A DNA stretch of 63,815 nucleotides, filler included, from Dugesia japonica (lineage: Eukaryota): assembly GCA_001938525.1 (NCBI GenBank). It is 6 parts of 6 records of this genome, joined end to end, with 100 filler letters (N's around TTAATTAATTAA, not from the genome) between each part and the next. Parts side by side here need not be neighbours in the genome. Positions count along the whole stretch, not along the records: positions 1 to 8,762 come from MQRL01262421.1; 5 more parts are not named here. One strand, given 5' to 3'. Both the position numbers and the translations under genes were made by a program. Below, one piece after another: positions 1 to 48,907 of this stretch. The first letter of the stretch is position 1, and each line of letters begins with the position of its first letter. The notes beneath the pieces are model-generated. The model was not told the origin of the DNA. It saw nothing but the letters and a program-made list of their open reading frames with translations, and searched no databases.

Positions 1-1094
1 AATGATTTATTTTGAAGCAGAAAATAAATTATTTGTCAAAAATAAGAAAAATGAAGGTTTTCGCTTAAGTTAAATTGGCAGATAAGAAAATTATGGACAA
101 GAAAAATCAGGGAATTCAAAAATGGTAGTTAGAAAATCGTTACAAGATCCAGAAAGAAGTTATTAGGGTCTGAAGGTTGATAATTAGAACTCCAGTAGTT
201 TTGGAATTCCAAAATTCTACCCAATAAGAAGAAATCATGTGATAATAAATTAAAATAACCGGCCAATAAAAATGCCAAGAACAATTCTTAACCAATAAAA
301 AGAATAGGGGTGTAGAAAAGAACCGGAATAAATACCGATGAAATTTTCACCAAAAAAAATTATCTTTTATCAAGAAAATACTGAGGTTGAACGGGACATT
401 TTCAATTATCACAGAAGGTGATTACCTTTGCTAATTGATTACTGGTGCAACGATTTCCGGCTCGACTCAATATCGAAAGATTATGGAGAACCTCTTGAAT
501 TTTTAATGATTGCTGAAATGGTGTCAATTCACATGCTGTGCTTGCTCTGGATCGGGATCCGGACCACGTTAGTTCTATCAATTGTTTTAATTGCCAGTTT
601 AATGTACCACCAGTAAAGTTGGTATTTTAATATAATTTTCGCTGTTAAAATTTTGTTTTTCTTTGTTTTTAGGATAAATAATTTAATACCAAACTACAAA
701 ATTTATAATTAATTCAGACTGAACTAGTTGATGTAGTAAAGACTATTAAACGACTCTCCAAAGTTGAAATCAATAAAGTAAGGACTAATAAGAAAATAGA
801 TAATGTGAATCATACATGACGGAGAAATCAAAGCGAGTATTTTAAAATACGAACCTGAACCAAAAGAATGCGAGTGTGCTCTTAAATTCAGAGACTACGG
901 CTCCATTCCGAAGATCTGGAATTTTGGGGACTCCAAATTAAATTCTTCACGGTTACCAAAAGGAATAATTAAAGAAAAACCGAATTTAAGTAACTGAATA
1001 TGGGGGATGATTTGTAACCTATTGTGTTGCAAAAAGAGAAAAGAATCTTAAATCTTAATCTTAAAAATTAGCCCACCAAGACAAAACCCCAACA
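1..1094 (+). repeat. 5' LTR (left-truncated by window edge) of an LTR retroelement
   Basis: Alignable by eye with ~7620-8654 (shared AAATACCGATGAAATTTTCACCAAAA, GCAACGATTTCCG, GAATGCGAGT); contains CCAAT motifs; ends ...AAAACCCCAACA at 1094, followed closely by a PBS. Confidence 0.85.
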
Positions 1095-1101
1095 AAGATT
1101 T

Positions 1102-1119
1102 TGGGGGCTTAACCGGGAT
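1102..1119 (+). promoter_or_regulatory. Primer-binding site, tRNA-Pro type
   Basis: TGGGGGCTTAACCGGGAT 7 nt after the LTR end; compare the MLV tRNA-Pro PBS TGGGGGCTCGTCCGGGAT. Confidence 0.85.
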
Positions 1120-1249
1120 ATAAATGGAACATCATCCTCGGGAGGATCATAGAACCATCAATACTACATCCATAAATAAATAGGATTTAAAATTTTACGT
1201 AAATCATTTCAATCAACAAAAACTACACTTAAATGACTCAAATTAATGA

Positions 1250-1560
1250 AACTAAACTGACTAAAGTAAATTAGAAACATTAAGATTAAGGATCAATTAT
1301 GAAATCGCGATTGAAGTAAAGAATAATAAAATTAAAGTAAGAAATTAAGAGTTAAAGTAAATTAAAAATTAAACCGAGAAATTAAGAAATTAAAGTAATT
1401 AAGAAACTAAAGAAAGAAATTAAAGTAAAAAATTAAAATAATCAAGAACTTAAAGTAAGTAATCAAGTAATTAAGGAAATTAAAGTAAGAAATTAAAATA
1501 AGAAACTAGAAAATTAAGGTAATTAAGAACATAAAGTATGAAAATTATAGAAGAAATAAA
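1250..1560 (+). repeat. Degenerate A-rich tandem repeats in the retroelement leader
   Basis: Repeated AAATTAAAGTAA/GAAATTAAG units. Confidence 0.6.
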
Positions 1561-1619
1561 AGAAATGCTAAGAATCAAGGTACCCGACAGCCTAGGAAAT
1601 AATGAGGTAAGGTACGAAA

Positions 1620-2084
1620 ATGTTACAATTGCAAGCTAAAGATTGTCAAACGAAAAATAAAGTATGTTACATCTGTGGAAAACAGGGCCACATCGCAAGA
1701 TTATGTCGACACAGAATAGACCTTGCAGGACCAAGGAATATAACAGAAGCTAGAAAAAGTCGTAATTACGAAGAAAACCATTTTCCAATTAAATATGTAC
1801 AATGGTATCAAATACGAAAAAATAAAGATGCTGAAAATACCAGGAATAAAGAGGTAGCAGAAATCCTGTCCGAAGAAAACCATCAGTTACGTGAACAAAT
1901 GAAAAGTTGTCATCAAAGAATCACTCGACTAAGAGAAGCCCTAGCAGAACTAAAGCTCAATGGAGGAGAAAAGTCACCAGAGGAAACCATACAAAAGGAG
2001 AATAAAATAACCCCAGAATATAAAACAAACACGGAACCTTACGAAGAGGAACAAAACGAGCCAATAGCTGTAATAAAAACTTAA
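1620..2084 (+). pseudogene. Gag-like fragment with CCHC zinc knuckle and coiled coil
   Basis: CYICGKQGHIARLC; a partial knuckle upstream; heptad-like LSEENHQLREQMKSCHQRITRLREALAELKL. Confidence 0.75.
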
Positions 2085-2430
2085 GATGACGGATTTAGCC
2101 TTTCACTAATAATACGAATCAACAACCCACCACTGAAAATACTTTTAGATACTGGATCATTCCGATAGTTAGTAAATATAAAAAAGGTACCATCAAACAA
2201 AAGAAAAGAAATAAAACACTATTTAACCAGAGCAACAAGTATTAAGGGGAAAACCAAGCAAATCATTTGAACATTAGAGTGCAATGCACAACTTCAAGAA
2301 AAAACAATAAAACACCAAATTCTTGTAATGAAAACCAATGTAGATGCAGTATTTGGAACAGATGTAATGCCGAAATCGTTAATTGGTACAAAATTGGATT
2401 TTACTACATTTTAAATCGAATTGGAAAAAC
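2085..2430 (+). pseudogene. Retropepsin-like aspartic protease remnant
   Basis: Manual translation gives LKILLDTGS at ~2133-2160 and a later AVFGTD motif; interrupted by stops and frameshifts. Confidence 0.7.
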
Positions 2431-2892
2431 CAAAATCAGAAATGATAGGCATGTTGCAAGTAAGTCAAGAAATCCCTAATCTAAAAAAAGATCAAAACAT
2501 TTAGGAAGACCAATATCAAAATTGTCTAAACCAATGGTTAGTCAAGAACAGCAAGTGTTATTAGAAGCGTTAGTATGTAACCAAGGTCAAAGTTTATTAG
2601 GTTTAAAACCAGAATCATTTAAAATAAAAGTTTTATGGCTTTTCAATACGAGAAAACTGATCATATTAGGAGATTATGGCTGGTGTGACATAGCGAAATT
2701 GATTGAAAATAACAATTAAGAACCAAGAGAGCCGACAGACGAAAAAACGGAAGAATTATATTTCGGTTCTACACTTATTGATAGCGAGTCCATGGACCCA
2801 ATATAATTAGGGAGACTCTGGAAAATGCTGGAATCAATATATTCGTCCAAAATAAAGAAGATGGACGTTATAATCGACATCTAAAACGATTA

Positions 2893-4250
2893 ATGATAAG
2901 CTTAAGGAACAAAGGCCTCCAAGCATTAACATTATTTAACGAACCGATAGTATCAAAGTGGCAAGAACCAAAATCGACAATGAAAAAGAAAACAAAGTAT
3001 GAAAAGAACATTGAAAAAGAAGAAATCTTGAATGCATCTAAAGACTTACTACAAACGGTAACTATGCAACCACAAGAATTAAACAAAAATACTCACAAGG
3101 TAAATCAATTTCCTGAAGAAGTAGAAGAAAAAACCGTGTTAGTAACAAGGATGCTAAAACTCGTAGAACAGGAACGGTGGATCGTTATCAGTATGCAAAA
3201 GTGCAACATATGTAAAAAGAAGGGACATATTGAAGAAAGTTGTTGGGCAGATAAAATATGCCACTGCTGTGGCGAAAAAGGGCACATATGGAAACATTGT
3301 AGCAATAAGCGGGAAAGGACTATAAAAGAAAAAACACAAATTCGCTACGGTAAGGAAGGAGAACAAGAAAATATAGTGACCGACTCGATTAAACTCTGCA
3401 TGCTACAGGTGGAAACTGTCGAAATAATAGAACCAGATGACTTCACAGAAGTAGTGTCAAAAAAGAAAAAGGAAAGAAAAACAATTAGAGAAATGAAAAC
3501 TAAAAGCCAGTTATCGGAAGCAGGCACTCTAAATATACAGGAAGCCGAAATAATTCAAACATGTAGCCAAGAACAAGTAAACTATATAACAAGGTTGAAC
3601 TCAAATCAAGAGTCAGAATTATCGTCAAGCAACGATCTTACCGATCAGATGGAAGAACTGTTATGGGTATTAACATTACAACTAAAGGTGTTGGAAGAGG
3701 TAACCAATGCAGTACGGAAAGTATCTGTAGAAGCAATAGTAGAAAATTTACTAAAGTCAAGGTATCGAAATTCAGAGAACAAGAAAAAAGGACGATATTC
3801 GCAATGTAATTGTTGTTAAAAACCTGGAATGAAACGGAAGAAGTTATAATGAAACCCACGATACCTAAACAAAAGAAAACTATAAGTGTAGTGAATGTGG
3901 TAAACTTGGTCATCTGGCAACCTGGTGTTGGAAAAATAGATTATGTAAATATTGTGGGGAATCAGATCACCCAAAGAAACTATGTTGGAAAAAACCATGC
4001 AAATTATGTGGCAAATTAGAACATACAGAGATACAATGTAAAAAAGAATGGGATATCGAACCTATTTTTAGAAAGGAGGTTTGCACGAAATGTGGAAAAA
4101 GAGACCACACGATGCCTTTATGTGGGGTAACATTCAAAAAATATGGCCGCAAAGGACATACTGAAATAGTATGCCAACCGTAGAGGAAAAGAACATTTAG
4201 CCGAACAATTTGGTATTCCTAGATGTTTCAACTGTGGTAGAAAAGTAAAA
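2893..4250 (+). pseudogene. Multi-zinc-knuckle (CCHC array) protein of the retroelement
   Basis: ORF 2893-3819 has CNICKKKGHIEESC and CHCCGEKGHIWKHC. A shifted frame at 3887-4183 has CSECGKLGHLATWC, CKYCGESDHPKKLC, CKLCGKLEHTEIQC, CTKCGKRDHTMPLC and one degenerate knuckle. CFNCG at ~4224 is truncated. Confidence 0.8.
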
Positions 4251-4442
4251 TGGTCTGTTCTCATTCCAGGCGTCGTGTAAAGGCTGTAATTGATGCTGTG
4301 GTAATTTTATTGAGTAATTAAAACCAATGATGTTTAAAATTACTGATATTTGTAAAATTTCAAATAAATGTTCAAATTTGTAGTTTTTAGAGATATTTTT
4401 TTTACTGCATTTTACGCTTCAATTCTACTTGCGCATCCTGTA
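4250..4442 (+). mobile_element. 3' end of a Tc1/mariner-superfamily (maT-like) transposon
   Basis: Transposase C-terminus RRVKAVIDAxxNFIE*, then a terminal ...TACTTGCGCATCCTG followed by TA. Confidence 0.55.
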
Positions 4443-5475
4443 TAACCCGGAAAAAACGTCAAATTAACCCTCTCAAGATTAATGATGGATGATCTAGAAA
4501 TGGCTATTCGACAAACAGGTTATCCTAATTTAGCCAGTCAATTCACATGTACACCAACTGCACTACTAGACCTCACGCAAGAAAGGACTATATATATAAT
4601 TATGGGATAAAACCTGGCGAGGAGACTGAATTAGTATTATTAGATAAACATCTGAGTATAGATTACGAAATATGGATAACTAAAAATGAAAGATCACCCC
4701 TATAATGGAGGAATTGGAACAACTGTATCAACAAGAAGTAAATCTCATCAAAATAAACGTTCTCATGGCGGTATTTTGGAAAAAAGATAAGAAAGCAAAT
4801 GAGTAAAGGAAACACATTCTGGCCACTCAAAACGAATCACTCAAACAACGATTGAAAAAAAGAGAGGGCCGTTGTAATACGATAAGAATGCGTAAGTAAC
4901 CATCAAAAAAGTAGTAGCAATGCGAAAAGTAAGAGAAATATTCAATAAAGTTCAAGCAAAAAAGAATAAACCAATTTACAAATACAAAGCCTCGATGAGT
5001 ATAAACCTGGTAAAATGAAACCAATAGATGAGATAATTTAGCAGTTAGAAGACCTGTACGAAAAAGAAATAACCAACGGTAAGTTATTCAAAGAAATCGA
5101 CCAAGATGAAATGTAAATAAATATCGAACATTGCATGGACAAGGATGAAGAATGTTGGCACGAGTAATAATGAGGATACTATTAACACTTCATAAAAATC
5201 TATAGTTATTAAAAGATGACAGAGTAATAAAATTAATCATGCGGCTAAACCAACTAAAAGCTTAATGCCAGAAAACATAATGGATGAAATATTGTATAAT
5301 GCTAGCAAAATGTTTGCTAATCAAGACTTTTAAAAAATTGTCAAATTCCCAGATAAAAGTGAATGCATACAATTTCATATAAAAATGGTAGACCCCTGGT
5401 CAAAACTGTTGAAGATAATTATGAAGTACATGAACAAACAAAAAGACATATATACAGGAAAGATAGAAGAGTACA

Positions 5476-6200
5476 AAATTTGGCAGATTAGTAGACGTCA
5501 TGTATCTCTATAAATGTAAAACAATAGATGCAGTATTATAATCTAACAAGTTGGAGATAATACACAAGAACGAAAAACGATATGTGCAACCTATCAGCAG
5601 AATAATATCCCCAACAGAATATAAACCTATGATCATAAATTGTTCCAATGTATTCGGACCACATTATGTTCTCACATATGGTACGTGTGTTAGATTTCTA
5701 GAGCGCAGTTCGGTAGGAATCGCACATAAGAAATTCTCGATGCTACGACTAAATTACGGAATAAAATTCACTTCAATTGACGTAAGGTTTCTATAATAGT
5801 AAAGACTTAGAAAAGCAAGAGAGTAAACGCTTTTCTTCGTCAGAAGAATGCAGATCTTATTGATTATAGTACAATTAACAAGTGAAGCATTCACAAATGG
5901 ACAGATTAACTACGATACACTACTATCACCAGATCACTTTCAAAAAAGCCACAGTAAATGTTAGGAAGAAAATGTGGGGGAGGTTTATTATCTTCAAACA
6001 AGCAATTGCATGATTAATAAGAATCATGCTGATAATTTCGGTAACCCGATTAGTCATAACACAATTATTGGCCTGTTTTCACATGTACAAAATGGAGTAG
6101 AAAGTAAATTGGAAGATGGTAACGGAAATATTCTTATTTCTGGCTAAGACCATGCTTTTTAACAGTCACTCTAAGAATATATATCGAGTAAAGAGGTTTA
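5476..6200 (+). pseudogene. Env-like chuvirus-type/class III fusion glycoprotein, C-terminal half, decayed
   Basis: Translated blocks KFGRLVDVMYLYKCKTIDAVL, LEIIHKNEKRYVQPISRII...IINCSNVFGPHY, GFYNSKDLEK and KMWGRFIIFKQAIA*LIRIMLIISVTRLVITQLLAC (TM). The order matches the chuviral G motifs GEVIHIIKCVPV / LPV..N...F..P.TRIL..C..P.Y / GIY...DL / MWG.F..FG as I recall them. Confidence 0.7.
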
Positions 6201-6429
6201 TCCGCAATCTCAGACAAAAAAGAAATTCTGAAAAGGAAGTAGTAATTTCAATTATTATGTGAAGAAATGGGTGAGGCAACCAATGAACAGTCAATCACCA
6301 CAAATAGAGTTTCAGGGACTACCTTATAGCCGTGCTTATTATGGCCAATCGCAACTTACTAACAACTCACTAATACCGAGCGAAAATATACTACCACAAT
6401 CTTACATTTCAACAATTACTTTTATTACA

Positions 6430-6960
6430 GTTTTAAAATACAGTTTTATACGGTGATATGTTTTTATATGGTTTTTGTATGTTTTAAAATGTATTTGTAT
6501 ATAAGGTATTTTTATAAATTATTTAAAAGCAATTTTTATGGTTATTATAGGGCTGAATTAGGTAAATTTACGGTTTTCTAGGTTATTATAGTGTTCTATA
6601 TGTTTTTTATGGTTTTATAATGTTTATCTATGTAACTTATATGGTTTTATAGAGTTTTAAAAGTTCATATTGTGCTTTTATAAGGTTTTATATCATAATT
6701 ATATATGTTTTATAAGGTAATAATATGGTTCTATAGAGTAATTATTTGCTTTTGTTTGACCTAATTGATCAATTGTTTTGCAATTACATAAATTTTAATG
6801 AAAAGTTACCAGATGTCCATAAATTATGTCAAAAAGTTACCAGAGATCTAATAATTTTTGTAAAACGTTACCAGATGTCATTAAAATATTTTTAAAAAGT
6901 TATTTAATATAATTTAATTATTTCTAAATATTTACCATTTGTCCCTGAAAGGTTACTAGA
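6430..6960. repeat. Low-complexity degenerate repeats (GGTTTTATA; GTTACCAGATGTC)
   Basis: Short motifs recur at irregular spacing. Confidence 0.45.
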
Positions 6961-7143
6961 GTTAGAAAAGACTAACACATTAAATAAAATCATGCAATAA
7001 ACCAAATGCATTCAATGACATAATAAACATCATACATTCAATAATTGCATCATATAAACGCAAATAATTCAAAGAAATCTATGCATTAAATGTATTCAGA
7101 ACATCCTAAAACCCAATAATACGCATAATCTGTACAATATACA

Positions 7144-8654
7144 TGTTAGGGTGAAACAATTGACATTAGTAATTAAACCAGTGATTAAGTACACCTGAAT
7201 TGTGAAAGAATGTCAAAAGAAATAAAATGAAGAATACAAACAACAGAAGGAGTAAAATCAGTTACGGAAAGGAATAATTGAAGAAAAATACCGGGATTAC
7301 GAAACTAAAGAAGGAGAGATGACTCGTATCAAAGAGGAGGAAATGTTGAAAAACACAAACGGACCGAAAAAAACAAAGAAAGAACAATTAATAACAAATA
7401 AAAGTAATTCATTAACTAAAAGAAAGAAAGTCGAAGAAAATGGATTATCATCTCACAGAAAATAAACGAAAACGAATTAATTAGCAAAAGAAAACAGCGA
7501 AATTATTCAGCGAAGTTATTCAGAAAGACAAAGAAATAAACAGCAAATTAATATTTTGGAAGAAAAGAAAATAAATAATTTATTTATTTAAATAAAATAA
7601 ATTGAACAATTTAAAATAAATTATTTTTAAAAGAAAAATAATTATTTAATGAAAAATGGCAAAAATAACGACTTTCCATGGTGAAAATTAGCAATTAAAG
7701 TGATTCTGGTCAAGAAAAAATCGGAGATCTTGAAAATCTAAATTAAAAAATCAGTAGGAGTCTCAGAAAAAAGATACAGGGGTTTGAAAGTTGACCAATA
7801 GATTCGAAATCCAAAAATATCATAAATAAAAAGGAAATGAAAACGTCAGAAAAGTCGTACGACTCCAAATAACCAATGAACGGAATGGGGATGTGAAGAG
7901 AAACCGGTATAAATACCGATGAAATTTTCACCAAAATATTTATCTTTTGATCAAGCTAATATTGTAATTGAACGGAGATATTTTAAAGTGAATATTCTTG
8001 TTATTCAATCAGGGATGCAACGATTTCCGACTTGAACCGAATATGGAAAATTATGGTGGACCCATTGAATCATAAATAATTACCAAGGGAATGATAATTC
8101 ATATCTCGTGCTTGCTCCGGATTGGGATCCAGACCACGCAAATTTTATTGTTTGTCCTATTTGTTAAATTAATGTATAACAAGTGGCGTTTTGATAATCG
8201 AATATATTTTTCCACTTGTTAAAATCTTGAGTTCTTGATAATTTTAAACCTTAGGTATGGATTGTTAAACTAAACGTAGTAATTAACTGAACTAAATATG
8301 CTTAATTCTGAAAAAGAAAATTTATAATAAATTAAGACTCAACTGACTGATAAAATCAAAATCCAATAAAACAGGTTATGAACGGAAATCTAAAAATTTA
8401 ATGGTTGATAAGTATGATTTGAGAATCAAGCGAGTATTATGAAGTATGAAACCAAACCAAAGGAATGCGAGTATGTACTCGGATTCCGAGTCAACGGATC
8501 CGTTCCAAAGATCTGAATTTTTTGAAGGACACCAGATTCAAATTCATCGTGGAGTTATACCAGGTCAATTACCCCATACATAATTTATATAAAGTTCGAC
8601 CCCTCTAGATTTAATCATATAAGATATCAACCCACCTAGGGTAAAACACCAACA
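7144..8654 (+). mobile_element. Solo LTR (~1.5 kb) related to the LTR at 1-1094
   Basis: Starts TGTTAGGGTG and ends CACCAACA; flanked by 4-bp direct repeat TACA (7140-7143 and 8655-8658); CCAAT and TATAAATA motifs at ~7873-7915; no PBS follows. Confidence 0.8.
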
Positions 8655-8762
8655 TACATATCATTATAGTAAAAAAATATATAAAGTCAATATAAAATTT
8701 CACAAAATTCATAAAAAAAATATACTAACTTCATGGTTTCTATAGGGTTTTATGAGAAAATT

Positions 8763-8862
8763 NNNNNNNNNNNNNNNNNNNNNNNNNNNNNNNNNNNNNN
8801 NNNNNNTTAATTAATTAANNNNNNNNNNNNNNNNNNNNNNNNNNNNNNNNNNNNNNNNNNNN
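8763..8862. other. Artificial contig linker 44N-TTAATTAATTAA-44N
   Basis: Identical 100-nt structure at five places; stop codons in all frames. Confidence 0.95.
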
Positions 8863-11699: not shown

Positions 11700-13027
11700 A
11701 AAATTCAAACAAAAATGACTTAATTTCACCAATTTACCACAAAAGTTTAAAATAATATTAAAAAACTTGAAAATTTGAACAAATTCTACTTTTTCAAAAA
11801 CTGACCGATCTCGAGGAAATAATTCATTAATACGCCCAAAAATTACCTAAAACGACCAATCTTGAGGAAATAGTTTAATAAATCTTCCAAAATTACCCAA
11901 ACTGACTAATCTTGAAGAAAATTCAGCCAAATCGCTCAAAAATGAACCAAATTTACCATTCTTGAGTAAACTATTGACTGAATCACTCAAAATTACCCAA
12001 ATTGACCAATCTTGAGGAAATAGTTTACTAAATCTTCCAAAATTACCTTAACTGACTAATCCCTAGGAAAATTACAGCAAAATCGCTCAAAAATGAACCA
12101 AATTTACCATTCTTGAGGAAATAAGTAAACAAATTCACCTTAACCAATCAAAAATCGACTTTATTTGACCTCAGTAAGAAAACCTGCAACCTATTTCACC
12201 TAAATCACCCAAAAATTATCAATTCTGAGGAAATTTTGAACAAACTATCCAAAAATTTACTAAACCAACCAACTTCGAGAAAATATTAAACCAAATTCAT
12301 CTGAACCAATCAAAAATTATCAATCACGAGGAAATATTTGACCCAATCACCGAAAATTACCAATCCCGAGAATTAATTAGACCAAATTCACCTAAACTAG
12401 TCAAATAATACCAAAATCCAACCAAATTTACCCAAACGTCATCAACACGAAGAATTATTCAAGCAATTTTACCTAAAACAGTCAAAGATTTACCTCATTC
12501 AACCTCACCGAAGACATTTTGGACCAATCTCACCTAAATTACCCAAAAATCATCAATCCCGAGGAAATAATTGACCAAATTCAACTAAAACATACAAGAA
12601 TAGACCTTATTTGACCTCACCAAATAAATTTTGGACAAAAATCACTAAAAACCAATAAAAAATTGACCTCTTTCGACCTAACCGAATAAATTCCCAACTT
12701 ATTAAACAGGGAAAAGTAACACCACATTACCGCTTAAAAAGCCTAAAAAATTTTCCCAACTAAATACATAGGAAAAAATAACACCAGTTAATCCTATTAC
12801 GTAAAATTTTACCGATGAAATTAATCTCATAACATAATTTGTGTGCAAAAAATTTTCCCAATTAAATACACAGGGAAAAATTACCACCAAATTAAGTACT
12901 ATTACCTAATGATGAAATTTTAAAATTCCCAACTAAATACATAACGATTATATTTCATTACGTTACGTCACGGTGGAAGGGGGCTACTGAATGTGTGCGT
13001 GGTGCAGACTGCTACTATCTATCTACT
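11700..13027. mobile_element. Terminal region (right end) of a Polinton-type element with a subterminal ~40-bp repeat array
   Basis: Ends ...GCTACTATCTATCTACT at 13027 and is a reverse-complement match to 30922-31433. Array of AAATTACCCAAA..ACCAATCTTGAGGAAA units at ~11790-12700. Confidence 0.7.
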
Positions 13028-13357
13028 TTTGTCAGTCAAACCTTTACCTGCCTTATCAACTAACTTTAATTTAGTATACAAAAAAGTATCATTCAAATTC
13101 AAATATTCAGTTTGAGATCCATTAATATAAAATTCTACATCGCTTTTTAAATCAGAAATTGAATTCATTGGATAAACATCTTCAAATATGGCATTTTCAA
13201 TAACTGCTTGATGTGGTGGACGATCAAAAATACATAACTCAGTTTTACCAGAAATCATTTTCAAAAATTGTTCCATGTCCTCCATTCGTTTGTTTATACC
13301 TGTCGCTTTTGATTTTTTACATTTTTTATTAAATTTTTGCGGTTGCTTTGTTATCAT
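13028..13357 (-). pseudogene. Polinton major capsid protein N-terminus, truncated by an insertion
   Basis: ELCIFDRPPHQAVIE...VYPMNSIS...VEFYINGSQTEYLNLNDTFLYTKLKLV resembles the Polinton PY/hexon-like N-terminus; cut at 13027. Confidence 0.85.
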
Positions 13358-13514
13358 ATTACTTATTTCTGATGGAATCCTATTTTTTATAATGGTTTTA
13401 GAATGGTTTGCTATAATGTTTTAATTTGTTATATATACTGTTGTTATATACTGTTTATTCTTTTTTGTTAATATTGATTTTATTATTTTTTCGATTCATT
13501 ATATAGTAGGAGGT

Positions 13515-14170
13515 GAACTGACTTGTAATTTTTGCTCATAAAACTTTCATTGTATGATATTATTCTCATAATCTTTAATTACATACATGACTGGATTTTG
13601 TTTAGTATTGATTATCGATATTTGAAACACTTCATCGCTCCAATTACCATAAAGGTTTTTATAGAATGGAGATGCGCTTATTTTTGAGATTCTAACATGG
13701 TCACCAACTTTATATTCTGGTTTCTTATTTGCTTTACTTTGATTGCGCGGATAACCATAATTTAAGGGGATTGTTTGAACTTACATCAACCAGTCTTGCT
13801 CCATTTAAACTTTTATGACTACTATGATTATAACTATGAATCAATTTCGACAACGCATTTATCCAGGTTTTATTGCCAGTATGCACAAATATTTTTTCAA
13901 AACATCTCTTATTGTACGATTAAATTGCTCTACATGTGCCGCTTTATACTGAAAGAATACAGTATAGATGTGATAAAAGATTTTTGACTTGTAAATCGAC
14001 TGAATACATCAATTTATGTCAAATTATACTTTTTTCTTTATTTATTTTTGAATATGGGATCATCTTCACCAAATCCACTTGCCATAAATAATCAATACGA
14101 AACGTTTGATATGCTCTTGTTGGAAATCTTTTCAACATTGGTTTGTTCAAACTGTACGCCAGTTGACCTA
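13515..14170 (-). pseudogene. Polinton retroviral-like integrase remnant
   Basis: LWQVDLVKM, LT*IDVFSRF, KAAHVEQFNRTI, W..ALSKLIHSYNHSSH, YKVGDHVRISK, NWSDEVF. Confidence 0.85.
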
Positions 14171-14393
14171 ATAACCACTTTTTTGTCTTTATTTTCGTTT
14201 TTGTGCTGCTTTCATCAATTTGTCTACGCCACAAAAACCTGCGAGATTTTTTGCGTCCGTGCAAATCGTCTTCAGCTTGCCCATTACAACAATTTGATAA
14301 AAACTTTAAATCAAAATTAGGTAATGATTGTAAACCACCCATTGTTTATTTAGAATGATTTCATTATAAAAGTTTCTATAAAACCAACAATTT

Positions 14394-14730
14394 TTATTTG
14401 AAAGGAGTTAATCCTAGGGCTGCTAATGCAATTAGTAGCAATGCTGCTATAAAGCAACCTCTTTGATTATCTTGTATTACTTGCGTCATCAATTTCTTAT
14501 TTTTTGTATTTACAAGTGTTAATAGTGTTCTTTTATGTTTATCAATACTTCCTTTCTTGCATTGCTCACATTTACATTTCCGCGAACAATATTTATAATA
14601 GTTTCAATTAAAGCATCTATAACAAACGTTGGAAATGATTTCAAAATTTGCATTCTCACCGATTTTGAAGATTGAATTAATAATTTAAAAAATGGAATAC
14701 TTCGTTGTAATTTTCTTTTATATTTTAATA
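14394..14730 (-). pseudogene. Small conserved Polinton basic/core-like protein
   Basis: LIETIINIVRGNV...KHKRTLLTL...QRGCFIAALL matches the Polinton small-protein pattern N...GNV..KHK..L..QxGGFL.ALL; homolog at 23072-23388. Confidence 0.6.
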
Positions 14731-14949
14731 ATATAAATTACCCGTATTTGTTTATAATGATGTCCATTTTCCGTTTATGTTCTTCATTTTCTTACCATAA
14801 AATTCCGATAGTTTTTTAAAAATGTTCAACTGTCTACTTTGTTTACTCTTTCCACCCTTTTTTTACAATACGCGTTTTTGTTCATTTACCACGTTTGATT
14901 TTTGAAATACTTTTAATCTAATCAACTACAAATCTTTTAAATTTAGTCA

Positions 14950-15525
14950 TTTTTAAAGTATAATATTTACTTAGTTTGTTTATACACAGTAACACCTTCA
15001 GGATTGAAAATATCAGTTTTCACCCTCAGTTCATCTGGACATTGTTATGTAAAGTCGATACAAATATAACCATGTGGATTTATTGTTGCAGAAATGATTC
15101 TGTCTTGCTAGAAAATGAACATTTAATTTACGTGTCCTATGACTTCCGCCTTGATGGAATAAATTTTGTGTAATGAATATCACAGTCACATTACAATGTA
15201 TGAATATTTTTGTAAATAAATTATTAAACTCTTTTTCTCTGTTTGCCTCTTGATACAGATCATCTACTACAATAACATCGCACGGTTTCAATCTATTGCT
15301 CCAATTTTTATCAAATTCATTAATAATTTTCATTTTAATGTTGCAAAAATTCTGATTGTGTTAACCCACACTTTTCATCTGCACATCTGTGCCAATATAT
15401 TTTGGTAAATTTTGATTTAAATAAATTAGATTTTAGTAACTTGCATGCAAACAAGGTTTTCACACTTCCGCTTGGACCAACAATTTGATAAACAGCATCA
15501 TTTCTCAATTACAATTTATAATTAT
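14950..15525 (-). pseudogene. Polinton packaging ATPase (A32/FtsK-like)
   Basis: Walker A IVGPSGSVKT (~15461-15484), Walker B VIVVDDL, and LFTK...VIFITQNLF. Confidence 0.9.
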
Positions 15526-18155: not shown

Positions 18156-18255
18156 NNNNNNNNNNNNNNNNNNNNNNNNNNNNNNNNNNNNNNNNNNNNT
18201 TAATTAATTAANNNNNNNNNNNNNNNNNNNNNNNNNNNNNNNNNNNNNNNNNNNN
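18156..18255. other. Artificial contig linker
   Basis: 44N-TTAATTAATTAA-44N. Confidence 0.95.
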
Positions 18256-26266: not shown

Positions 26267-26773
26267 TCACAGCAAAAGAAAAATTTGTTTAAATGATGAC
26301 AAGTAATGTACACAAAGTTTTAAACATTTTTTATAAGCACAATAATCTCCATGATTATAATATGGACAAAAAATATTATCTGGTATACTTAATTGCAGGC
26401 GCTCATCTGTTTTATTATAATTGACAATTCGAAGATTGGGGAAAAATTGCTTGAGAGTATTTATTTTCTTTCCATTTACTTGATCATTCACATAAAACAG
26501 TGCGTCATTTGGAATTGCTTTTAAGTCATTGAGTATTCTAGATGGATCAAAGTTTGAATATCCATCAATCTTTCTGAGATGATGACGTCAGAGCCGTAAG
26601 TACTCATTAGTCGTTTGAGCCCGTTTTGATAAACAACCCATTAATTCCGTCATGGCAAACAAGTAATAAAACGGTTGAAGAATATTATCCACATTCATTA
26701 TACATAATTCATTAATTCAATAGTTGGCATTATTATCCTGAAAGGCTTCAATATCAATGAAAAATACAGACAT
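26267..26773 (-). pseudogene. Conserved Polinton protein with DEDD-nuclease-like N-terminus and C-terminal Cys/His cluster
   Basis: MSVFFIDIEAFQ...NEYL..HH...G...CPYYNHGDYCAYKKC; lies downstream of the protease. Confidence 0.55.
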
Positions 26774-26801
26774 TTTCAAATATTTATTGATAATCACACC
26801 A

Positions 26802-27150
26802 TTATGGTTTATAATCATACTTGCCTTTGAGCCATTCAATACAATATTTCCCACATAAAAATGTTAATGTATTCTGGTAAAAAACTTGATTATACTCGAC
26901 ACGTTACTGCATACGCTCCAATTTTGTGACCAGCAATGGTGGGTAAAACATACCCATTGGATCAATAGCATAAATAATATTTGGCTTGACATGAATAGCA
27001 ATACAATGCTCACCATCTAAATTTGATGTATGTCTATTGATTACATAAGATCCTTTTTGAAAAAAGTCCGGTAAACGTTACAGTGGATACACTCCCTTGA
27101 ATCGCCTGATGCCCAGAATACGTTTCAATATTGTTTCAATATAAAAAGTA
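26802..27150 (-). pseudogene. Adenain-like cysteine protease
   Basis: FKGVYP..LP...YVIN...GEHC(W)IA...IDPMG...YQ...CGKYC. Confidence 0.85.
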
Positions 27151-27193
27151 TTATCAATAAATAAATTCTCTTTATAAAAAGACAATTCCTATT

Positions 27194-28300
27194 TCATGAC
27201 ATACACAACACACATACATATATGTATTTGTTATACAACACTACTTCATTCTTGGTGATTTGGATTGCCAAATCAAAACCTCCATATGCATAAATTGTCA
27301 CTGATTCCGCCAAGGCTTTATGGAATCGCATATCCAACTTGGAATTGCCGGTTTTTAGCAATTTTGCATGATCAACTGCAAAGTCCGGAGCCCATAAAAA
27401 GGTGAAAAACGTATACGAATCTTTAAATTTCTTCATTGTAATACCATTGGTTCGACCGACATTTAACAGACCCATATTATGAATAATCGATTGCACATAT
27501 GCCTCAGTATAGTCCATATCAAAGTCAGTAGTAAATGTTTCTCGACAATCAACGTTTCTTGCGAAGCATATTGAATGTGGAGCTAAATGAGCCATAATCA
27601 CCACTTGGTTGTTTTGATGATTGAAAAGCAATCAAAACAAATTTTTGTATATGTTCATCGAAAAAGAGATTATCTTTATATCCTCCATGCGAGTTCTTTG
27701 GAATTGTAAAATGTACGATATTGGTTTTCTGGAAAGGATAAGTTGCATTTTGAAGTTCCAATCTTTGACAATGTCCAAGCATAACTGACTGATCAACACA
27801 AACACGTCGCTCTACTAATTAGTTTGCTTCTATAAAATATGGTTGTGAATTCATCTCCACTGTATCAGTACCCTTGGTATAGTTGTAAATTACCGAACCA
27901 AAATTTCTCGTCAATTTGATTGTACATTAATTTCTAGCAACAAATACTTTGGTTGGTCAAAAAAATCCAAATTAAGTGCATCACAGAGCGTTAGCTTTGC
28001 AGAAGTTTTAATCCAACTCTTTCTCTTGTCATCGTCTTTATAATAACCAATGGCTTCAAGAAAAGTGTTTTTTGTATCCGATCCAAAATTCAATGCTGCT
28101 TCAATTACCGCCTTTTGCATTTACGTATAATTTGTATCCTTAACCTTTACATTATTTATTGTTAATAATGCTTCTTTGAAAAGAGTGTGAAGCAAATAAT
28201 TGGAAGGAATTGTGTTGGTAGTATCAGTTAATTCAAAATTCTTTCCATTATGCTTATACAACCTGTGGTATATTGTAGTCAAAAAGCGATAATTCAGTTT
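27194..28300 (-). pseudogene. Polinton major capsid protein (frameshifted)
   Basis: NYLLHTLF, QKAVIEAALNFGSD, FFDQPKYLL, ATYPF, DNLF, FKDSYTFFTF..PD, GNSKLDMRFHKALAESVTIYAY. Confidence 0.9.
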
Positions 28301-28316
28301 TTTCCGGAATTAATGG

Positions 28317-28697
28317 TTATTTGGTAAAGATGGTTCCACCTAGTCCTCGTCTTTTGTTTATACAGAATTTTATTTTATCTTTCCTTTTACGTAGTCCACT
28401 ACCATGCTGCCCATCAATAACTTCCTTTAATGAATTAAGTGCATTTCCCTTCAAATCCGGCAACATATTCATTGCTTGGTTTTTGATTGATTCTTTAAAT
28501 GACTGCTTCTTGTTTATAACATCATCAACAGGTTTAAGTGCTGCTTACCACAATAACTTTGCAATTGAAAGTCCGAATTTCTGCAAAATTGGAATTGCAA
28601 AACGTCCATTTCTATGCAGCCAATTTCCACCACCTTGTTTTTGTTGACTTTTGATAAAGTATGGCAAGTCTCCACCCATTTGTGGACGACTAAACAT
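28317..28697 (-). pseudogene. Polinton conserved protein resembling adenovirus pVI (QxGxG motif)
   Basis: QMGGDLPYF...QGGGNW...RFAIPIL...QHGSGLRKRK, immediately upstream of the major capsid gene. Confidence 0.6.
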
Positions 28698-28749
28698 TTT
28701 TATAATAGCTCAATCAACCATTTCAATAATAAATCAAATTGTAATCAAA

Positions 28750-30079
28750 TTGTAATCAAATTGTTTATACTTGTCGAAAATGTAGAGTTAAACTTGTTTT
28801 TGATCCATATATCGGAAATCAATCAATCGTCCCGCATCATCACGTATGTTTAATTCAATTTTGTTGATGGTGAATAAATTGGATTCTCAAGTCTTACATG
28901 TACAGGCTTATTATTATCAACTCATATACTCCTCAAAGATGGCACGCATACATCACCAACCAGAATTGGATCGGCTATTGATGAGTAAATATATAGTTCT
29001 CTGCTACCACCATGTAATAATGGTTTATGCAAACCATTTACTTGTTCTGTATACTTGCAGAATTTTGAAGAGGGAAGACCGAGTATTAGAGAAATACTCT
29101 CATCGCATGATACATATTTAACATTAAACATGACCAGTCCAAATTTTGAATCTATAAAAAATTCTTTAAATATTTTATGGTATAATTTTCTAAATGATGT
29201 AATCAGATGATCTATATCCATAACCATTAAATCACTTTCAAACTCAAAATAATTTATTTCTGTTTTGATTTCAGTAAATTTTAATTTAACATCAGTTTTG
29301 GCAATATTATCCCACATTCGAGTATCTGATTCGATAAATGAATCAATCGGTTTGCTTTTCGTCTTTTGCGAATTACATCCCAGGAACCGAACATTAAACA
29401 ATGAATTAAAATCCAATTCCATATTGCAATCAAATTTGATAATTATTTTCTTTTTACCATTAATACTGATTTCGCAATTCTTTTTATTTTTAAAACCAGA
29501 AACAACAGGTTTTCCATTTTTAACCTTAACATTTAAATTTTCTTCAATTTCTTTTATTTTAGCTTTTTATTCCTCAATGGTATTATTCTTGAATTTTTAA
29601 GATATTGATTGAATATTTTCCAGAATCACTTGCTTATCAGATTCGATAACTGAAACTAATGGCTTCTTATTTTTGGTATTGATTAAATTGAATCCAAACC
29701 TTTTAGCATCTGATAACGATTTAAACTCCACTTCTACTTGACAATTTGTTTTTATTATTACTTTCTTTTCATCGGAAAATATACACCAACTATATTTATT
29801 GATAGGGACGGTATTATTATTAAGTTGAAGACTACCATTTTAAATACTTAATTTAAATTGATCTTCAACTTCCACGATCTCTCTTATTTTATATTCAATT
29901 TGTAAACTTTCCCGTACAGTCTGTGGACAATAATAGAAAACCAATTCTGTCATGGCAACTTCCCAATGCTCATCTTTTAAATTGATGACATTCTCATAGT
30001 CAACTAAATACTTGCTCGTATTATTTACAGGTCGACTTCTTGGACAACTATTGCTTGGCAAAACTATATAGAAACTCAT
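28750..30079 (-). pseudogene. Polinton minor capsid (penton) protein with a large internal insert
   Basis: N-terminal MSFYIVLPSNS...NNTSKY...INL..HWEVAMTEL; C-terminal LYIYSSIADPILVGDVCVPSLRSI. Confidence 0.85.
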
Positions 30080-30921
30080 TATTGGATTTGAGATGCTTGA
30101 ATCCACGTAGGCGTTAAAAAGCCATTCCATTCATCTAGATATTGTTAATATTGTCCTTGACTTTTGGTTTTTAAAATTAATTTGATTCGATATATACTTG
30201 GTTTTTCCGGCAACACTTGTAATTCCTGCTAATAAAATTTGCCTTGAATAATATTACTATCTTCATCACGCATTGCATACATGACTGGGGTTTGTCTCGT
30301 GTTGATTTTCGATTTTTGAAAGACTTCATCACTACAATTATTATCAAGGTTTTTGATGAATGGTGTAGTGCTAATTCGAGAAATCCGTACATGTTGTCCA
30401 ATTTTATATTTTGATTTTGGCTTTTTATATATGAAAAATTGCGTATAATCATCACCATCTGTAACATCAACTGGTTTTTTCCTCCCCGATACCTCTTTGC
30501 TTAGAATAGCTGCATGCATAAATAATTTTTGGTAAAACAAGTATTCAATTTTTGTTACCTTGTTTAATTGTGTGCTGAGTGTTCGATTAAAACGCTCAAC
30601 TAAAGCAGCCTTGTACTGAGAAAATACTGAATAGTGCAGTATACTATATTGTTTCAGTAATGATGTTTCCTGGCTATTGTAAATCTCTTTACCAAAAGCA
30701 GTCTAAATAGCTTTCGGGTGAACATCTTTAAACATTTCCGCCAAAACCAACAAAATATCTTTACCAGATTTCCGTTTTACTGTAACCGCACGCAAAAATC
30801 CAATAAATACATCAACACATGTCAATATATATATAATCATTATTTATGCTTGCATATGGAATCATTTCCATCAAATCCTTTTGCCATAGTCTATTAACGC
30901 CAGCAACAATATATTTCCGTG
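30079..30921 (-). pseudogene. Polinton integrase with C-terminal chromodomain-like region, 5'-truncated by an insertion
   Basis: RKYIVAGVNRLWQKDLMEM, LTCVDVF, GKEIYN, KAALVERFNRTL, YKIGQHVRISR, SDEVF, IIQGKFY, QYLDEWNGF..TWI. Confidence 0.9.
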
Positions 30922-31433: not shown

Positions 31434-31533
31434 NNNNNNNNNNNNNNNNNNNNNNNNNNNNNNNNNNNNNNNNNNNNTTAATTAATTAANNNNNNNNNNN
31501 NNNNNNNNNNNNNNNNNNNNNNNNNNNNNNNNN
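31434..31533. other. Artificial contig linker
   Basis: 44N-TTAATTAATTAA-44N. Confidence 0.95.
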
Positions 31534-39447: not shown

Positions 39448-39867
39448 TATTAGGTAGTTGCATTAATTCTCGCTGCTTGTTTTAATTAACTAACTTATTA
39501 AATATTTCAGCGATAATTTAAATCAATCAGTAAGATTTGGTAAGTATTAATATTTAAATGTTAAAATAATGGGATATTATTTAATTAAGTTGTACAGCAA
39601 ACGAAAACCAATCCATTTAATATGACTAGTTTTATTCTAAAAAACGCACATTTGCGGGAGGCGTTGCTTTTTTGTTTTCATCTCAAAGGAAGTGCTGCAG
39701 AAAGTCATAGGATTCTTTCAGAAGCTTATGACAACCATGCTCTGTCTGAAACATGGTGTCGAGAACGGTTTCGGCAATTCAAAATTGGTGATTTTGATTT
39801 GCAGGATAAACAACGACCAGGTCAACCAAAGCGCTTTTCAGATGAAGATTTGGAAAAGTTGTTGATC
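39448..39867 (+). mobile_element. Mariner element 5' end with transposase HTH N-terminus (cut by gap)
   Basis: TATTAGGT terminus; HLREALLFCFHLKGSAAESHRILSEAY...FKIGDFDLQDKQRPGQPKRF. Confidence 0.9.
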
Positions 39868-39967
39868 NNNNNNNNNNNNNNNNNNNNNNNNNNNNNNNNN
39901 NNNNNNNNNNNTTAATTAATTAANNNNNNNNNNNNNNNNNNNNNNNNNNNNNNNNNNNNNNNNNNNN
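39868..39967. other. Artificial contig linker
   Basis: 44N-TTAATTAATTAA-44N. Confidence 0.95.
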
Positions 39968-43329: not shown

Positions 43330-44466
43330 ACCGACTTCATATCATATGGATACAATATTTCTTCTCAAACCTCTGGGAGATAATAGATCGGCAGATGATC
43401 TTTGAGAACTACGCAGACACTAACAAGAGATAGAACCTAATTAAAAAGATGAAGACAATAGCATGTTGTTCAGAGATGCTTTCGTAAGAGCTATGCCTCT
43501 AAATATCAACCATCCTATCGTTTCCAAGAAAAATTGCTCATTGACTGACTTGCGCAAATCGAATTTTTACAAGTGGTACACAGCATCTCGAGTCAAACAA
43601 ATTCAAGTGAAGTACAGCAACTACAAGATGAGATAAATCAACTGAAAATGATTAACCCAAAAAACTCAAATTCAACAGATGGAACTTGCTATTACCACCG
43701 CAAATATAGAAAATTAGCCAGAAAATGCCGTGAACCATGTGATTAGAATTCTAAACAAACTCAGGGAAACGACAAAGGTTCTCAAATATTCCGGTGATTG
43801 AGAACCCTATCACTCCTGAACCGGAACTCATTTCTCCAACATTCATTGTTCCAGCAAATCATCAAAGCCAGGTAATAAATTTTCTAATTGACACAGCAGC
43901 AGATGTTAGTATTCTACCAGCCAAACAATTTCACACCGATCAATGTGAAACGACTAAACAACTAATTTCAGCTGGTGGTAGCACAATTCCAACTCGAAGA
44001 CAACGCACTTTGTGCCTTAACTGCTTTGGACTTCCACAAATATTCAAGTGGACATTAATTGTCGCAGAAGTTCGTCAACCAATATTGGGATCAGACTTCT
44101 TCAGGCACAATGACATTATAAAAGACTGTCCAGGAGATAGAATTATTCTCGACAACAGCTTAGCTCAAGGATCGCGAAAGAATGATCATTCCAATAGAAC
44201 AACGCACAATTATAATCTACAACCAGAACTTCGAATCATGACAACAGGACATTCTAAATCTCAAAAATCTTGACGACTAGTTAGAACAATGTTTGAAACA
44301 TTTTGCCATGAATTTGAAAAACTTCTAGAAAAAGTAATTGTAAAAAGAAGCACAAGCGCCTGGACATCTCTCTTGGTTGTTGTCAAAAAGAAAAATAATC
44401 GCCAATGCGGTAACTAACGATTACTAAATGCAGTGACCATTCCTGACAGGTATCCTTTACCTCGTA
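43330..44466 (+). pseudogene. Ty3/gypsy gag-protease-RT remnant
   Basis: CYYHRKY...ARKCREPC; FLIDTAADVSILP; PILGSDFF; RT start SAWTS..VVVKKK...RLLNAVTIPDRYPLPR, cut at 44466. Confidence 0.85.
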
Positions 44467-47400: not shown

Positions 47401-48400
47401 TTATCTGCATAGCAACCATATATTATAAAGATTCTGAGTTTATTATTACATATTAACCACGTATTATTTGCATAGTTACCTTGTCTTATTTACATAACAA
47501 CCGTGAATTATAGGGTTTACGCGTATATTATTTACAAAACAACTGTTTAATGGATTTGTATGTATTATTTACATAGTAACCATGTATTATAAGGATCATG
47601 GGTGTATTATTTACATAACAACCATGCAATATAAGGATTTTGTGTGTATTAATACATAGTAACCCTGTATTATAGGGTTTATGAGTATATTATTTGCATA
47701 GTTAACTTGTGTTATTTACATAACCACCCTGTATTTAAAGTTTTATGGGAATATTATTTACATGTACTATACGTTGATCATGCACAATACTTGCTCGCGT
47801 AATGTTCATGACAATTTTAGATAACAAATAAATAATAAGTCTATATAAAAACTTATAAGAAAATATTTTTATGATTTTATAGGGTTTAAGTTTATATTAT
47901 TTACATATTAACCGTGTAATATAATGTTTTCAAGTGTATTTTTTGTATAATTATCTTATATTATTTACATAGTAACCCTTTAGTATAGGGTTTATGAGTA
48001 AATATGATTTTGAGTATATATAGTTTAAATACCCTATACACACAAAAGCCTATATGTTTACTCAAATTCTTTTATACACATAAACCCTATAGATTTATTA
48101 AAGATATTTACTTTTAAGTTTTTATATTGTCTTTTAAGATTATACATTAATTGGAAGTTATACACTCAAAATAAAAATCCTATAAAAATATTTACTTAAA
48201 TAGGCTTATAAGGTAATTTTACAGTATTTTTAAGTTATAAAAATAAAAATGATCCACACTCATAAATATTATTTACTCATAAAGCCTTTACATTTACATT
48301 AATATTTACTTATAAGTTTTTATATAGGTTCATAAGTTATAAATGAAAAAGTTAATGAATTATTAATGAATTATTTATAAACAATTTACCCAATTAACTG
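44467..48400. mobile_element. Element with an AGTAGGTAGATAG terminus and kb-scale subterminal repeat arrays
   Basis: The terminus interrupts the gypsy RT; successive repeat blocks at ~45150-45400, 45570-45920, 45960-46150 and 46260-48000. Confidence 0.55.
46260..48000. repeat. Degenerate ~41-bp minisatellite (TATTATTTACATAGTAACCATGTATTATAAGGTTTATGAGTG)
   Basis: Dozens of diverged tandem units, including ~21-bp half units. Confidence 0.85.
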
Positions 48401-48807: not shown

Positions 48808-48907
48808 NNNNNNNNNNNNNNNNNNNNNNNNNNNNNNNNNNNNNNNNNNNNTTAATTAATTAANNNNNNNNNNNNNNNNNNNNNNNNNNNNNNNNNNNNN
48901 NNNNNNN
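48808..48907. other. Artificial contig linker
   Basis: 44N-TTAATTAATTAA-44N. Confidence 0.95.

What the first reader, a model, noticed from the sequence alone, without database searches (positions are those of the whole stretch)
5476..6400. Chuvirus-type fusion glycoprotein (env-like) downstream of an LTR/PBS/gag/protease unit
Seen: four colinear blocks across frameshifts (DVMYLYKCKTI; YVQPISRII..C..GPHY; GFYNSKDLEK; MWGRFIIF plus a hydrophobic TM segment), largely missed by the ORF track. Known: chuvirus-related class III glycoproteins have been captured as env by some BEL/Pao and other LTR retrotransposons in arthropods and nematodes. Inference: the element starting at LTR 1-1094 may be an enveloped invertebrate retrovirus-like element from an independent env capture. 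A transposon fragment at 4250-4442 separates env from gag, so linkage is not proven.
Basis: partly seen in the sequence, partly recalled or inferred. Interest (0 to 1): 0.72.

Follow-up and report, generated by a model that had tools for sequence, protein, structure and literature searches.

The report
Broken retrotransposon envelope gene fragment
This is a real but broken piece of a virus-like envelope gene from a known kind of invertebrate jumping gene, lying next to parts of what is probably a different jumping gene, so it is an ordinary genomic fossil.

Summary
The homology is real. 5479-6253 matches Pfam PF24664 (chuvirus/Monjiviricetes fusion glycoprotein; E 2.6e-7), and an intact relative folds like chuvirus G and herpes gB. 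But only the C-terminal 40% is present, broken by three frameshifts and at least three stops; identical contigs from a second study confirm the breaks. Its nearest relatives are not viruses or BEL/Pao elements. They are Ty3/gypsy polyproteins with env in frame between gag and protease-RT-integrase, the GAG-ENV-POL type published for flatworms, nematodes and bryozoans (PMC6431247, PMC13524379). In 17 of 17 relatives holding both domains the protease follows env; here it precedes env, and the piece holds no pol. The upstream LTR-gag-protease unit is 10-200 times deeper in contigs than env and stops at a transposon fragment. The two LTR-like copies are only 65% identical. Best reading: a dead remnant of a known env-bearing gypsy lineage, joined secondarily to another LTR family. 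An independent env capture is not supported.

The parts
5479..6253 (+). Pseudogene fragment: C-terminal ~40% of a gB/chuvirus-type class III envelope protein (late ectodomain, membrane-proximal region, TM, tail); frameshifts near 5782, 5813-5825 and 5941; in-frame stops at 5539, 6011, 6098 (5824 too, depending on the switch point)
   Evidence: Pfam PF24664; tblastn with relatives, E to 5.5e-25; own profile columns 384-637 of 646; switch points; stops read
5978..6085 (+). Hydrophobic, TM-like stretch of the env fragment, interrupted by a stop at 6011
   Evidence: Kyte-Doolittle windows above 1.5, peak 2.2
1..1094 (+). LTR-like repeat, cut by the start of the piece, ending in CA; exact extent uncertain
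   Evidence: second copy at 7615-8654, 65% identity over 904 aligned columns of 1-950; no codon periodicity in the differences; contigs switch between the two copies
1102..1119 (+). Primer-binding-site-like sequence 7 nt after the LTR end
   Evidence: position seen in the sequence; the tRNA-Pro assignment is recalled and was not confirmed
1611..2084 (+). Gag-like ORF piece with one CCHC knuckle
   Evidence: PF00098 E 2e-4
2085..2450 (+). Retropepsin-type aspartyl protease, LDTGS at 2145, three stops
   Evidence: PF00077 E 1.9e-4; own profile E 1.7e-13; stop count
2785..4244 (+). Zinc-knuckle-rich coding region: 344-aa ORF with two CCHC, ORF 3869-4183 with four, and a knuckle cut off at about 4244
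   Evidence: no homologues found; Atlas hits only 0.80-0.82
4245..4442 (+). Fragment of another repeat, probably the 3' end of a Tc1-like DNA transposon (ends CTG then TA); its left end is missing
   Evidence: AT skew drops to -0.1 against about +0.3 in the upstream flank; separate depth class; no TIR pair or TSD found; Tc1 resemblance recalled, no Pfam hit
4443..5478 (+). Decayed A-rich stretch of unknown origin, mostly low copy, directly upstream of the env fragment
   Evidence: no Pfam hit; no convincing match to the relatives' pre-env regions; contig depth 6-14 in two of its bins
6456..6902 (.). Degenerate 10-nt and 31-nt tandem repeats, where the relatives continue into protease
   Evidence: Tandem Repeats Finder; env-to-protease spacing in relatives
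7615..8654 (+). Second LTR-like copy in the same orientation, probably starting further upstream (about 7300), ending in CA, with no PBS-like TGG directly after it
   Evidence: contig depth 47,000-116,000 in X1

Best explanation
The stretch is a dead remnant of the envelope domain of a Ty3/gypsy GAG-ENV-POL retroelement (Burro-like, 'ancient errantivirus' with HSV/gB-type ENV). In intact relatives a single polyprotein carries Gag, a class III fusion glycoprotein, one or more proteases, RT, RNase H and integrase (shown). The protease presumably releases the glycoprotein, which would trimerise in a membrane and fuse particle with cell (inferred from the fold; not tested here). This copy lost the N-terminal 60% of env and all of pol and then decayed, so it cannot make a fusogen. 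It now lies behind the 5' part (LTR, PBS, gag, protease, knuckles) of a much more abundant LTR family, most likely joined by nested insertion followed by a deletion at the transposon fragment near 4245 (inferred). The host is an AT-rich invertebrate, plausibly a planarian (inferred, not shown).
For: 16 of 18 library hits carry PF24664; 12 of these 16 have a protease and 3 an RT downstream in the same ORF, the other 4 are 89-215 aa pieces. Loci L001 and L002 hold env-PR-RT-RH-IN in one 3703- or 3426-aa frame; best solved match of their pol is Ty3 Gag-Pol. P0022 has a weak Bcl-2 hit just before env and P0029 ankyrin repeats, as described for Burro (PMC6431247). Identity 24-45% to retroelement envs against 15-20% to two stand-alone G-like proteins; tree places it in the polyprotein clade, 100/100. 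Protease follows env in 17 of 17 relatives holding both, but precedes it here. No pol in the piece, while the same profile finds decayed pol elsewhere in the window. Depth of 1466-4395 is 27,000-187,000 in X1 against 905-2,715 on env and 5-14 on three flanking bins. No read on 5275-6153 in 2 of 2 RNA runs laid.
Against: The env does lie between two same-orientation LTR-like copies, with a purine-rich stretch before the second, and A-rich strand skew is mostly continuous from gag to env, as in one element. Three deletion joints of similar depth (2237-2328, 4568-4658, 5979-6251; depth 23-30 in X1, about 10 in X3) hint at a few sister copies that could span protease to env. No contig shown settles the 4245 junction (16 pieces listed, 29,885 not shown). 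The fragment's branch is long (2.82) and only two outgroup rows, both unnamed, were in the tree. Only 4 relatives reach back to a CCHC gag, so 'never upstream' is well tested in few. No RT is present, so the carrier could not be placed directly. Depth is not a copy number (tool caveat).
Confidence: 0.72

Rival explanations
1. One old element: LTR-PBS-gag-protease-...-env-LTR, in which a deletion at the transposon fragment removed pol and other sequence (gag-pol-env order), or a pol-less subfamily that carried the env piece and multiplied with it.
For: Env lies between two LTR-like copies; strand skew mostly continuous; env bins are repeated (905-2,715 against about 6 in X1) and three joints of similar depth hint at sister copies.
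Against: LTR copies only 65% identical, while most laid contigs are 90-99% alike to this locus; depth falls from about 100,000 to 30 between 4245 and 4512; closest relative long enough to tell (P0001, 43%) has protease after env; the missing env half is not explained by a deletion at 4245, since 1 kb of other sequence lies between.
Confidence: 0.2
2. A non-retroviral endogenous viral element: a piece of a chuvirus or other Monjiviricetes glycoprotein mRNA reverse-transcribed in trans and inserted among LTR elements.
For: Pfam family is a viral glycoprotein family; best predicted-structure matches of the intact relative are chuvirus-type G; such inserts are often flanked by LTR fragments in arthropods (PMC10084718, passages).
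Against: All sequence hits long enough to tell are retroelement polyproteins; identity to stand-alone G-like P0024/P0025 is half that to retroelement envs; tree excludes it from that pair.
Confidence: 0.05
3. Chance similarity or an assembly artefact.
For: Single-frame Pfam score is only just above the cut-off; the window is a fragmented, repeat-rich assembly.
Against: Colinear matches in both frames with E 4.7e-22 and 8.2e-26 to the relatives' profile; shuffle control; contigs identical letter for letter across the breaks in X1 (5639-6170) and X3 (5632-6251), two studies.
Confidence: 0.01

Closest known systems
Planarian Burro / GYPSM1 giant gypsy elements (Arkhipova and Yushenova 2019, PMC6431247; section 7 read whole)
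   Same: Env with hits to mononegavirus fusion glycoproteins, in frame between gag (after BCL2) and protease; relatives found here show env-PR-RT-IN in one frame, a Bcl-2-like domain before env and ankyrin repeats.
   Different: This copy holds only the last 40% of env, broken, with no BCL2, RT or integrase; no Burro sequence was available for direct comparison, and the host is not established.
'Ancient errantiviruses' with HSV/gB-type ENV in GAG-ENV-POL order (Chary and Hayashi 2026, PMC13524379; abstract, sections 5 and 6 part 1, section 10, passages, supplementary file 1 rows)
   Same: Ty3/gypsy carrier, gB-type env related to the Chuviridae glycoprotein, env before pol; reported for Nematoda, Bryozoa and Platyhelminthes, with 6 Schmidtea mediterranea families of 1-215 copies.
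   Different: Those are intact; this is a pseudogene fragment behind a protease. Four short env motifs were not found in the 7 supplements, whose long cells are cut, so identity with a listed family is untested.
Anakin, mosquito BEL/Pao element with captured chuvirus glycoprotein (Dezordi 2020, PMC7642597; search listing only, plus passages in PMC10084718, PMC12440569 and PMC13524379)
   Same: Chuvirus-type glycoprotein used as env by an LTR element.
   Different: The relatives of this fragment have Ty3-like pol and env fused ahead of protease, not a BEL/Pao carrier.
Chuvirus / Monjiviricetes G and herpesvirus gB (class III fusion proteins)
   Same: Pfam PF24664 membership; model of intact relative L002 matches Tacheng tick virus 4 G (E 1.4e-34) and HSV-1 gB (E 1.6e-10).
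   Different: 15-20% identity to stand-alone G-like proteins; global TM-scores low (0.13-0.39) because the monomer model has pTM 0.40; the window fragment itself was not folded.

Membership tests
Class III (gB/chuvirus-type) fusion glycoprotein | Sequence match to PF24664 above the curated cut-off | tested here: met
   29.4 bits against cut-off 27
Class III (gB/chuvirus-type) fusion glycoprotein | gB-like fold | tested here: met
   Tested on intact relative L002 (30-35% identical over the shared part), not on the fragment: all listed top PDB matches are herpes gB
Class III (gB/chuvirus-type) fusion glycoprotein | Signal peptide or first TM, fusion-loop domain, full ectodomain | tested here: not met
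   Profile columns 1-383 of 646 absent from 1-8762 on both strands; 11 of 14 conserved cysteine columns fall in the missing part, 2 of the remaining 3 are kept
Class III (gB/chuvirus-type) fusion glycoprotein | C-terminal membrane anchor | tested here: met
   Hydropathy peak 2.2 at the homologous place, with a stop inside
Ty3/gypsy GAG-ENV-POL errantivirus (Burro-like) | Env belongs to the clade found in these polyproteins | tested here: met
Ty3/gypsy GAG-ENV-POL errantivirus (Burro-like) | Env followed by protease, RT, RNase H, integrase | tested here: not met
   Met in relatives; at this locus nothing of pol follows env
Ty3/gypsy GAG-ENV-POL errantivirus (Burro-like) | RT groups with Ty3/gypsy | not testable with these tools
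   No RT at the locus; relatives' pol best matches Ty3; no RT tree was built
Intact LTR element spanning 1-8654 | Paired near-identical LTRs and a target-site duplication | tested here: not met
   65% identity; 5' end lies beyond the piece, so no TSD can be read
Intact LTR element spanning 1-8654 | PBS after 5' LTR and polypurine tract before 3' LTR | tested here: inconclusive
   PBS-like site at 1102-1119 (tRNA recalled); purine-rich stretch near 7310 resembles one at about 1000 inside the first LTR-like copy
BEL/Pao Anakin-type element | BEL/Pao-type pol | tested here: not met
   No pol here; relatives are Ty3-like
Chuvirus-derived non-retroviral EVE | Closer to viral G than to retroelement env | tested here: not met
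   outgroup limited to two unnamed proteins

The most novel reading that the evidence does not exclude
A very abundant pol-less LTR family (gag, protease, many zinc knuckles) has a subfamily that picked up the membrane-anchored C-terminal part of a gB-type env from a GAG-ENV-POL partner, placed it downstream of protease, and multiplied with it: a non-autonomous passenger reusing part of its helper's envelope gene.
Probability: 0.12. Interest if true: 0.45.

Novelty: new member of a known kind. Interest (0 to 1): 0.15.

Why it matters
As it stands it matters little: it is one more decayed copy of an env type already documented in gypsy elements of flatworms, nematodes and bryozoans, and it cannot encode a fusogen. 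Its modest value is as a record of a divergent env sub-lineage (nearest library proteins only 43-45% identical over the TM region). If the env piece proved to be a fixed part of the abundant pol-less LTR family, it would be a case of a non-autonomous element borrowing part of a helper's envelope, which would interest retroelement specialists.

Tried and rejected
No whole genome is held, so full-length copies could not be retrieved. Word-indexed searches with the env piece and the 344-aa ORF found nothing; the full HMMER search did; its hits P0010 and P0018 are repeats without PF24664 and were dropped. Viral contigs gave no relative for three queries, nor did prokaryote genomes. Rfam: 0 matches in 1-8762. 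Idea that the LTR-like copies are a decayed gene: rejected, no codon periodicity. Idea that the knuckle cut at 4244 continues after the insert and so proves linkage: dropped, because the apparent His-Pro is also the transposon-like end, and depth falls to 30 at 4512. Idea that 4443-5478 is the missing env half or the relatives' pre-env region: no support (one weak hit, iE 0.023 among 13 queries). Frame 6232-6456 as env tail: not above shuffles. ESM Atlas for 2785-3816: only generic CCHC clusters under 0.9; the env fragment was not searched there. No RNA holder listed in the run index. Troyka elements considered from the search listing; first of five parts read, termini CG..CG do not fit the CA ends here. 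The Grohme 2018 genome paper was not held and Sacco 2022 did not appear in the search; both are cited only through other papers. Earlier-finding look-ups by place, sequence and words gave one related note in six look-ups.

Full report
Setting. The window is six pieces joined by spacers; the finding lies on the first, 1-8762, about 30% GC. No whole genome is held. The rest of the window is transposon debris, so the host cannot be read from a gene. An AT-rich invertebrate, plausibly a planarian, is my inference from composition and from the literature match below; it is not shown.

Observation. The four blocks exist as described. Pfam PF24664, the Monjiviricetes fusion glycoprotein family, hits one of 21 frames scanned at 29.4 bits (cut-off 27; E 2.6e-7; about 5780-6175; profile 475-607 of 653), and ORF 5542-5793 weakly at profile 399-438 (E 0.11). 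A full HMMER search with 5780-6259 gave 18 proteins; 16 carry PF24664 and 2 are unrelated repeats. These align to 5479-5949 in one frame and 5939-6253 in the next. A profile of 23 relatives' env regions matches columns 384-547 (iE 4.7e-22) and 534-636 (iE 8.2e-26) and nothing for columns 1-383 on either strand of the piece. The segment 5482-5781, not used to find the relatives, scores 46.3 bits; 360 of 500 shuffles were scored and the best reached 3.2. Three frame switches, near 5782, 5813-5825 and 5941, fit better than one (174.7 against 163.6 bits); stops lie at 5539, 6011 and 6098. A TM-like peak of 2.2 lies at the homologous place. Contigs from two studies are letter-for-letter identical across the breaks (X1 5639-6170; X3 5632-6251); X1 may be the window's own source, X3 is another sample. 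So the fragment is real, is the last 40% of the protein, and is dead.

What family. Of the 16 relatives, 12 have a protease and 3 an RT downstream in the same ORF; the other 4 are short pieces. Two metagenome loci hold env, protease, RT, RNase H and integrase in one frame of 3703 and 3426 aa, L001 with CCHC knuckles in front. The best solved match of the relatives' alignment is Ty3 Gag-Pol (E 2e-80). In 19 relatives scanned, 17 hold a protease, and in all 17 every protease lies after env; the protease profile was seeded from downstream copies, but it detects the window's own protease (E 1.7e-13). P0022 has a weak Bcl-2 match just before env (E 9.6e-4, below cut-off) and P0029 ankyrin repeats. 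Identity of the fragment is 24-45% to these envs and 15-20% to P0024 and P0025, two unnamed stand-alone PF24664 proteins of 652 and 657 aa that I take to be viral G. A 19-row tree puts the fragment with the 16 retroelement rows (100/100) apart from that pair, on a long branch (2.82); five short rows (P0001, P0002, P0008, P0012, P0016) were left out. An AlphaFold model of the intact L002 env (pLDDT 64, pTM 0.40) matches herpesvirus gB in all listed PDB rows (best E 1.6e-10) and chuvirus-type G first among viral models (Tacheng tick virus 4, E 1.4e-34); global TM-scores are low (0.13-0.39).

Is it linked to the upstream unit? The piece has an LTR-like repeat ending at 1094, a PBS-like site at 1102-1119 (tRNA identity recalled; not confirmed), a CCHC ORF, a protease with three stops and at least six more knuckles. 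There is no RT, RNase H or integrase in the piece, although the same profile finds decayed pol on other pieces. For linkage: a second LTR-like copy at 7615-8654 brackets the env, strand skew is mostly continuous, env bins are repeated, and three deletion joints of similar depth hint at a few sister copies. Against: the LTR copies are 65% identical over 904 columns, while 13,335 of 17,380 contigs laid from X1 are 90% or more alike; the order protease-then-env is the reverse of all 17 relatives; summed contig depth is 27,000-187,000 over 1466-4395 in X1 (11,000-45,000 in X3), falls to 30 at 4512, is 5-14 in three flanking bins and 905-2,715 on env (226-1,095 in X3) (the tool warns that this is no copy number). 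The drop coincides with a fragment at 4245-4442 that looks like the 3' end of a Tc1-like transposon (recalled resemblance) and cuts a knuckle; it has no left end and no TSD, which points to a deletion breakpoint. None of the 16 pieces shown, of about 29,900, bridges that junction. Two RNA runs (6% and 25% read) put no read on 5275-6153.

How it most likely works. Shown: relatives encode env inside a gypsy polyprotein ahead of protease, and the family has a class III fold. Inferred: the protease releases the glycoprotein, which acts as a trimeric membrane fusogen for the particle. Shown: this copy lacks the first 60% of env and all pol and is broken at six or more places. Inferred: it is debris of such an element, joined to the 5' part of a different, abundant LTR family by nesting and deletion (confidence 0.72; rival of one element or a pol-less carrier subfamily 0.2; free-virus insert 0.05).

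What is known. Arkhipova and Yushenova 2019 (PMC6431247, section 7 read) describe env between BCL2 and protease in planarian Burro elements, with hits to mononegavirus fusion glycoproteins. Chary and Hayashi 2026 (PMC13524379; abstract, sections 5 and 6 part 1, section 10, passages) report HSV/gB-type env related to the Chuviridae glycoprotein in GAG-ENV-POL order in Nematoda, Bryozoa and Platyhelminthes, list six Schmidtea families (supplementary file 1) and argue for an ancient origin rather than recent captures. Dezordi 2023 (PMC10084718, passages) found chuvirus glycoprotein inserts often flanked by LTR fragments without capture. Searches for a planarian non-autonomous env-bearing element and for gag-env-pol added nothing further; paywalled papers and Repbase were not searchable, so the abundant pol-less family may well be described. 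An earlier scan note on a coral gypsy element with this env type (e1-7768745) agrees but is not independent evidence.

Verdict. Observation confirmed; interpretation partly supported. It works like nothing now; by descent it is a gB/chuvirus-type env of the gypsy GAG-ENV-POL lineage, but the locus fails the membership tests for an intact errantivirus, for BEL/Pao Anakin and for a virus-derived insert. New member of a known kind; interest 0.15.

Noticed in passing
window 8763-8862, 18156-18255, 31434-31533, 39868-39967, 48808-48907: The window is six unrelated pieces joined by N44-TTAATTAATTAA-N44 spacers, so only 1-8762 is context for the finding.
   Followed up: yes
window 952-1052 and 7261-7370: The end of the first LTR-like copy resembles the stretch before the second (score 69; 200 shuffles mean 30, max 67). 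It includes a purine run followed by TGT at 1014, so the true LTR start and the 1-1094 boundary are uncertain.
   Followed up: partly
window 1466-4244: This gag-protease-knuckle region belongs to a very abundant family (contig depth roughly 10,000 times the low-copy bins) for which no pol and no library homologue was found; possibly a non-autonomous LTR family.
   Followed up: partly
window 13019-15360 and 26267-30702 (minus strand): Two pieces with decayed ORFs that look like Polinton/Maverick integrase and ATPase genes (recalled resemblance; no fitting Pfam hit); they share 13521-13723 and 30215-30417 at 75%.
   Followed up: partly
window 39589-39864: Mariner (Mos1-type) transposase HTH, PF17906 E 7e-12.
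   Followed up: no
window 43755-44465, 55380-56430, 58979-61107: Decayed gypsy protease, RT, RNase H and integrase pieces and a multi-knuckle gag on other pieces; no env near them.
   Followed up: partly
window 46300-48030: Degenerate satellite with a unit of about 42 nt, loosely like the T-rich repeat at 6456-6735.
   Followed up: no
P0009 (HBK71150.1): A 2627-aa gag-env-pol polyprotein is filed as a hypothetical protein of a Flavobacteriaceae MAG: probably animal DNA binned into a bacterial genome.
   Followed up: no
L002 10617-12107; P0029: L002 has an RNase T-type exonuclease ORF after pol; P0029 has seven protease domains in 4844 aa; 11 of 19 relatives scanned carry two or more.
   Followed up: no
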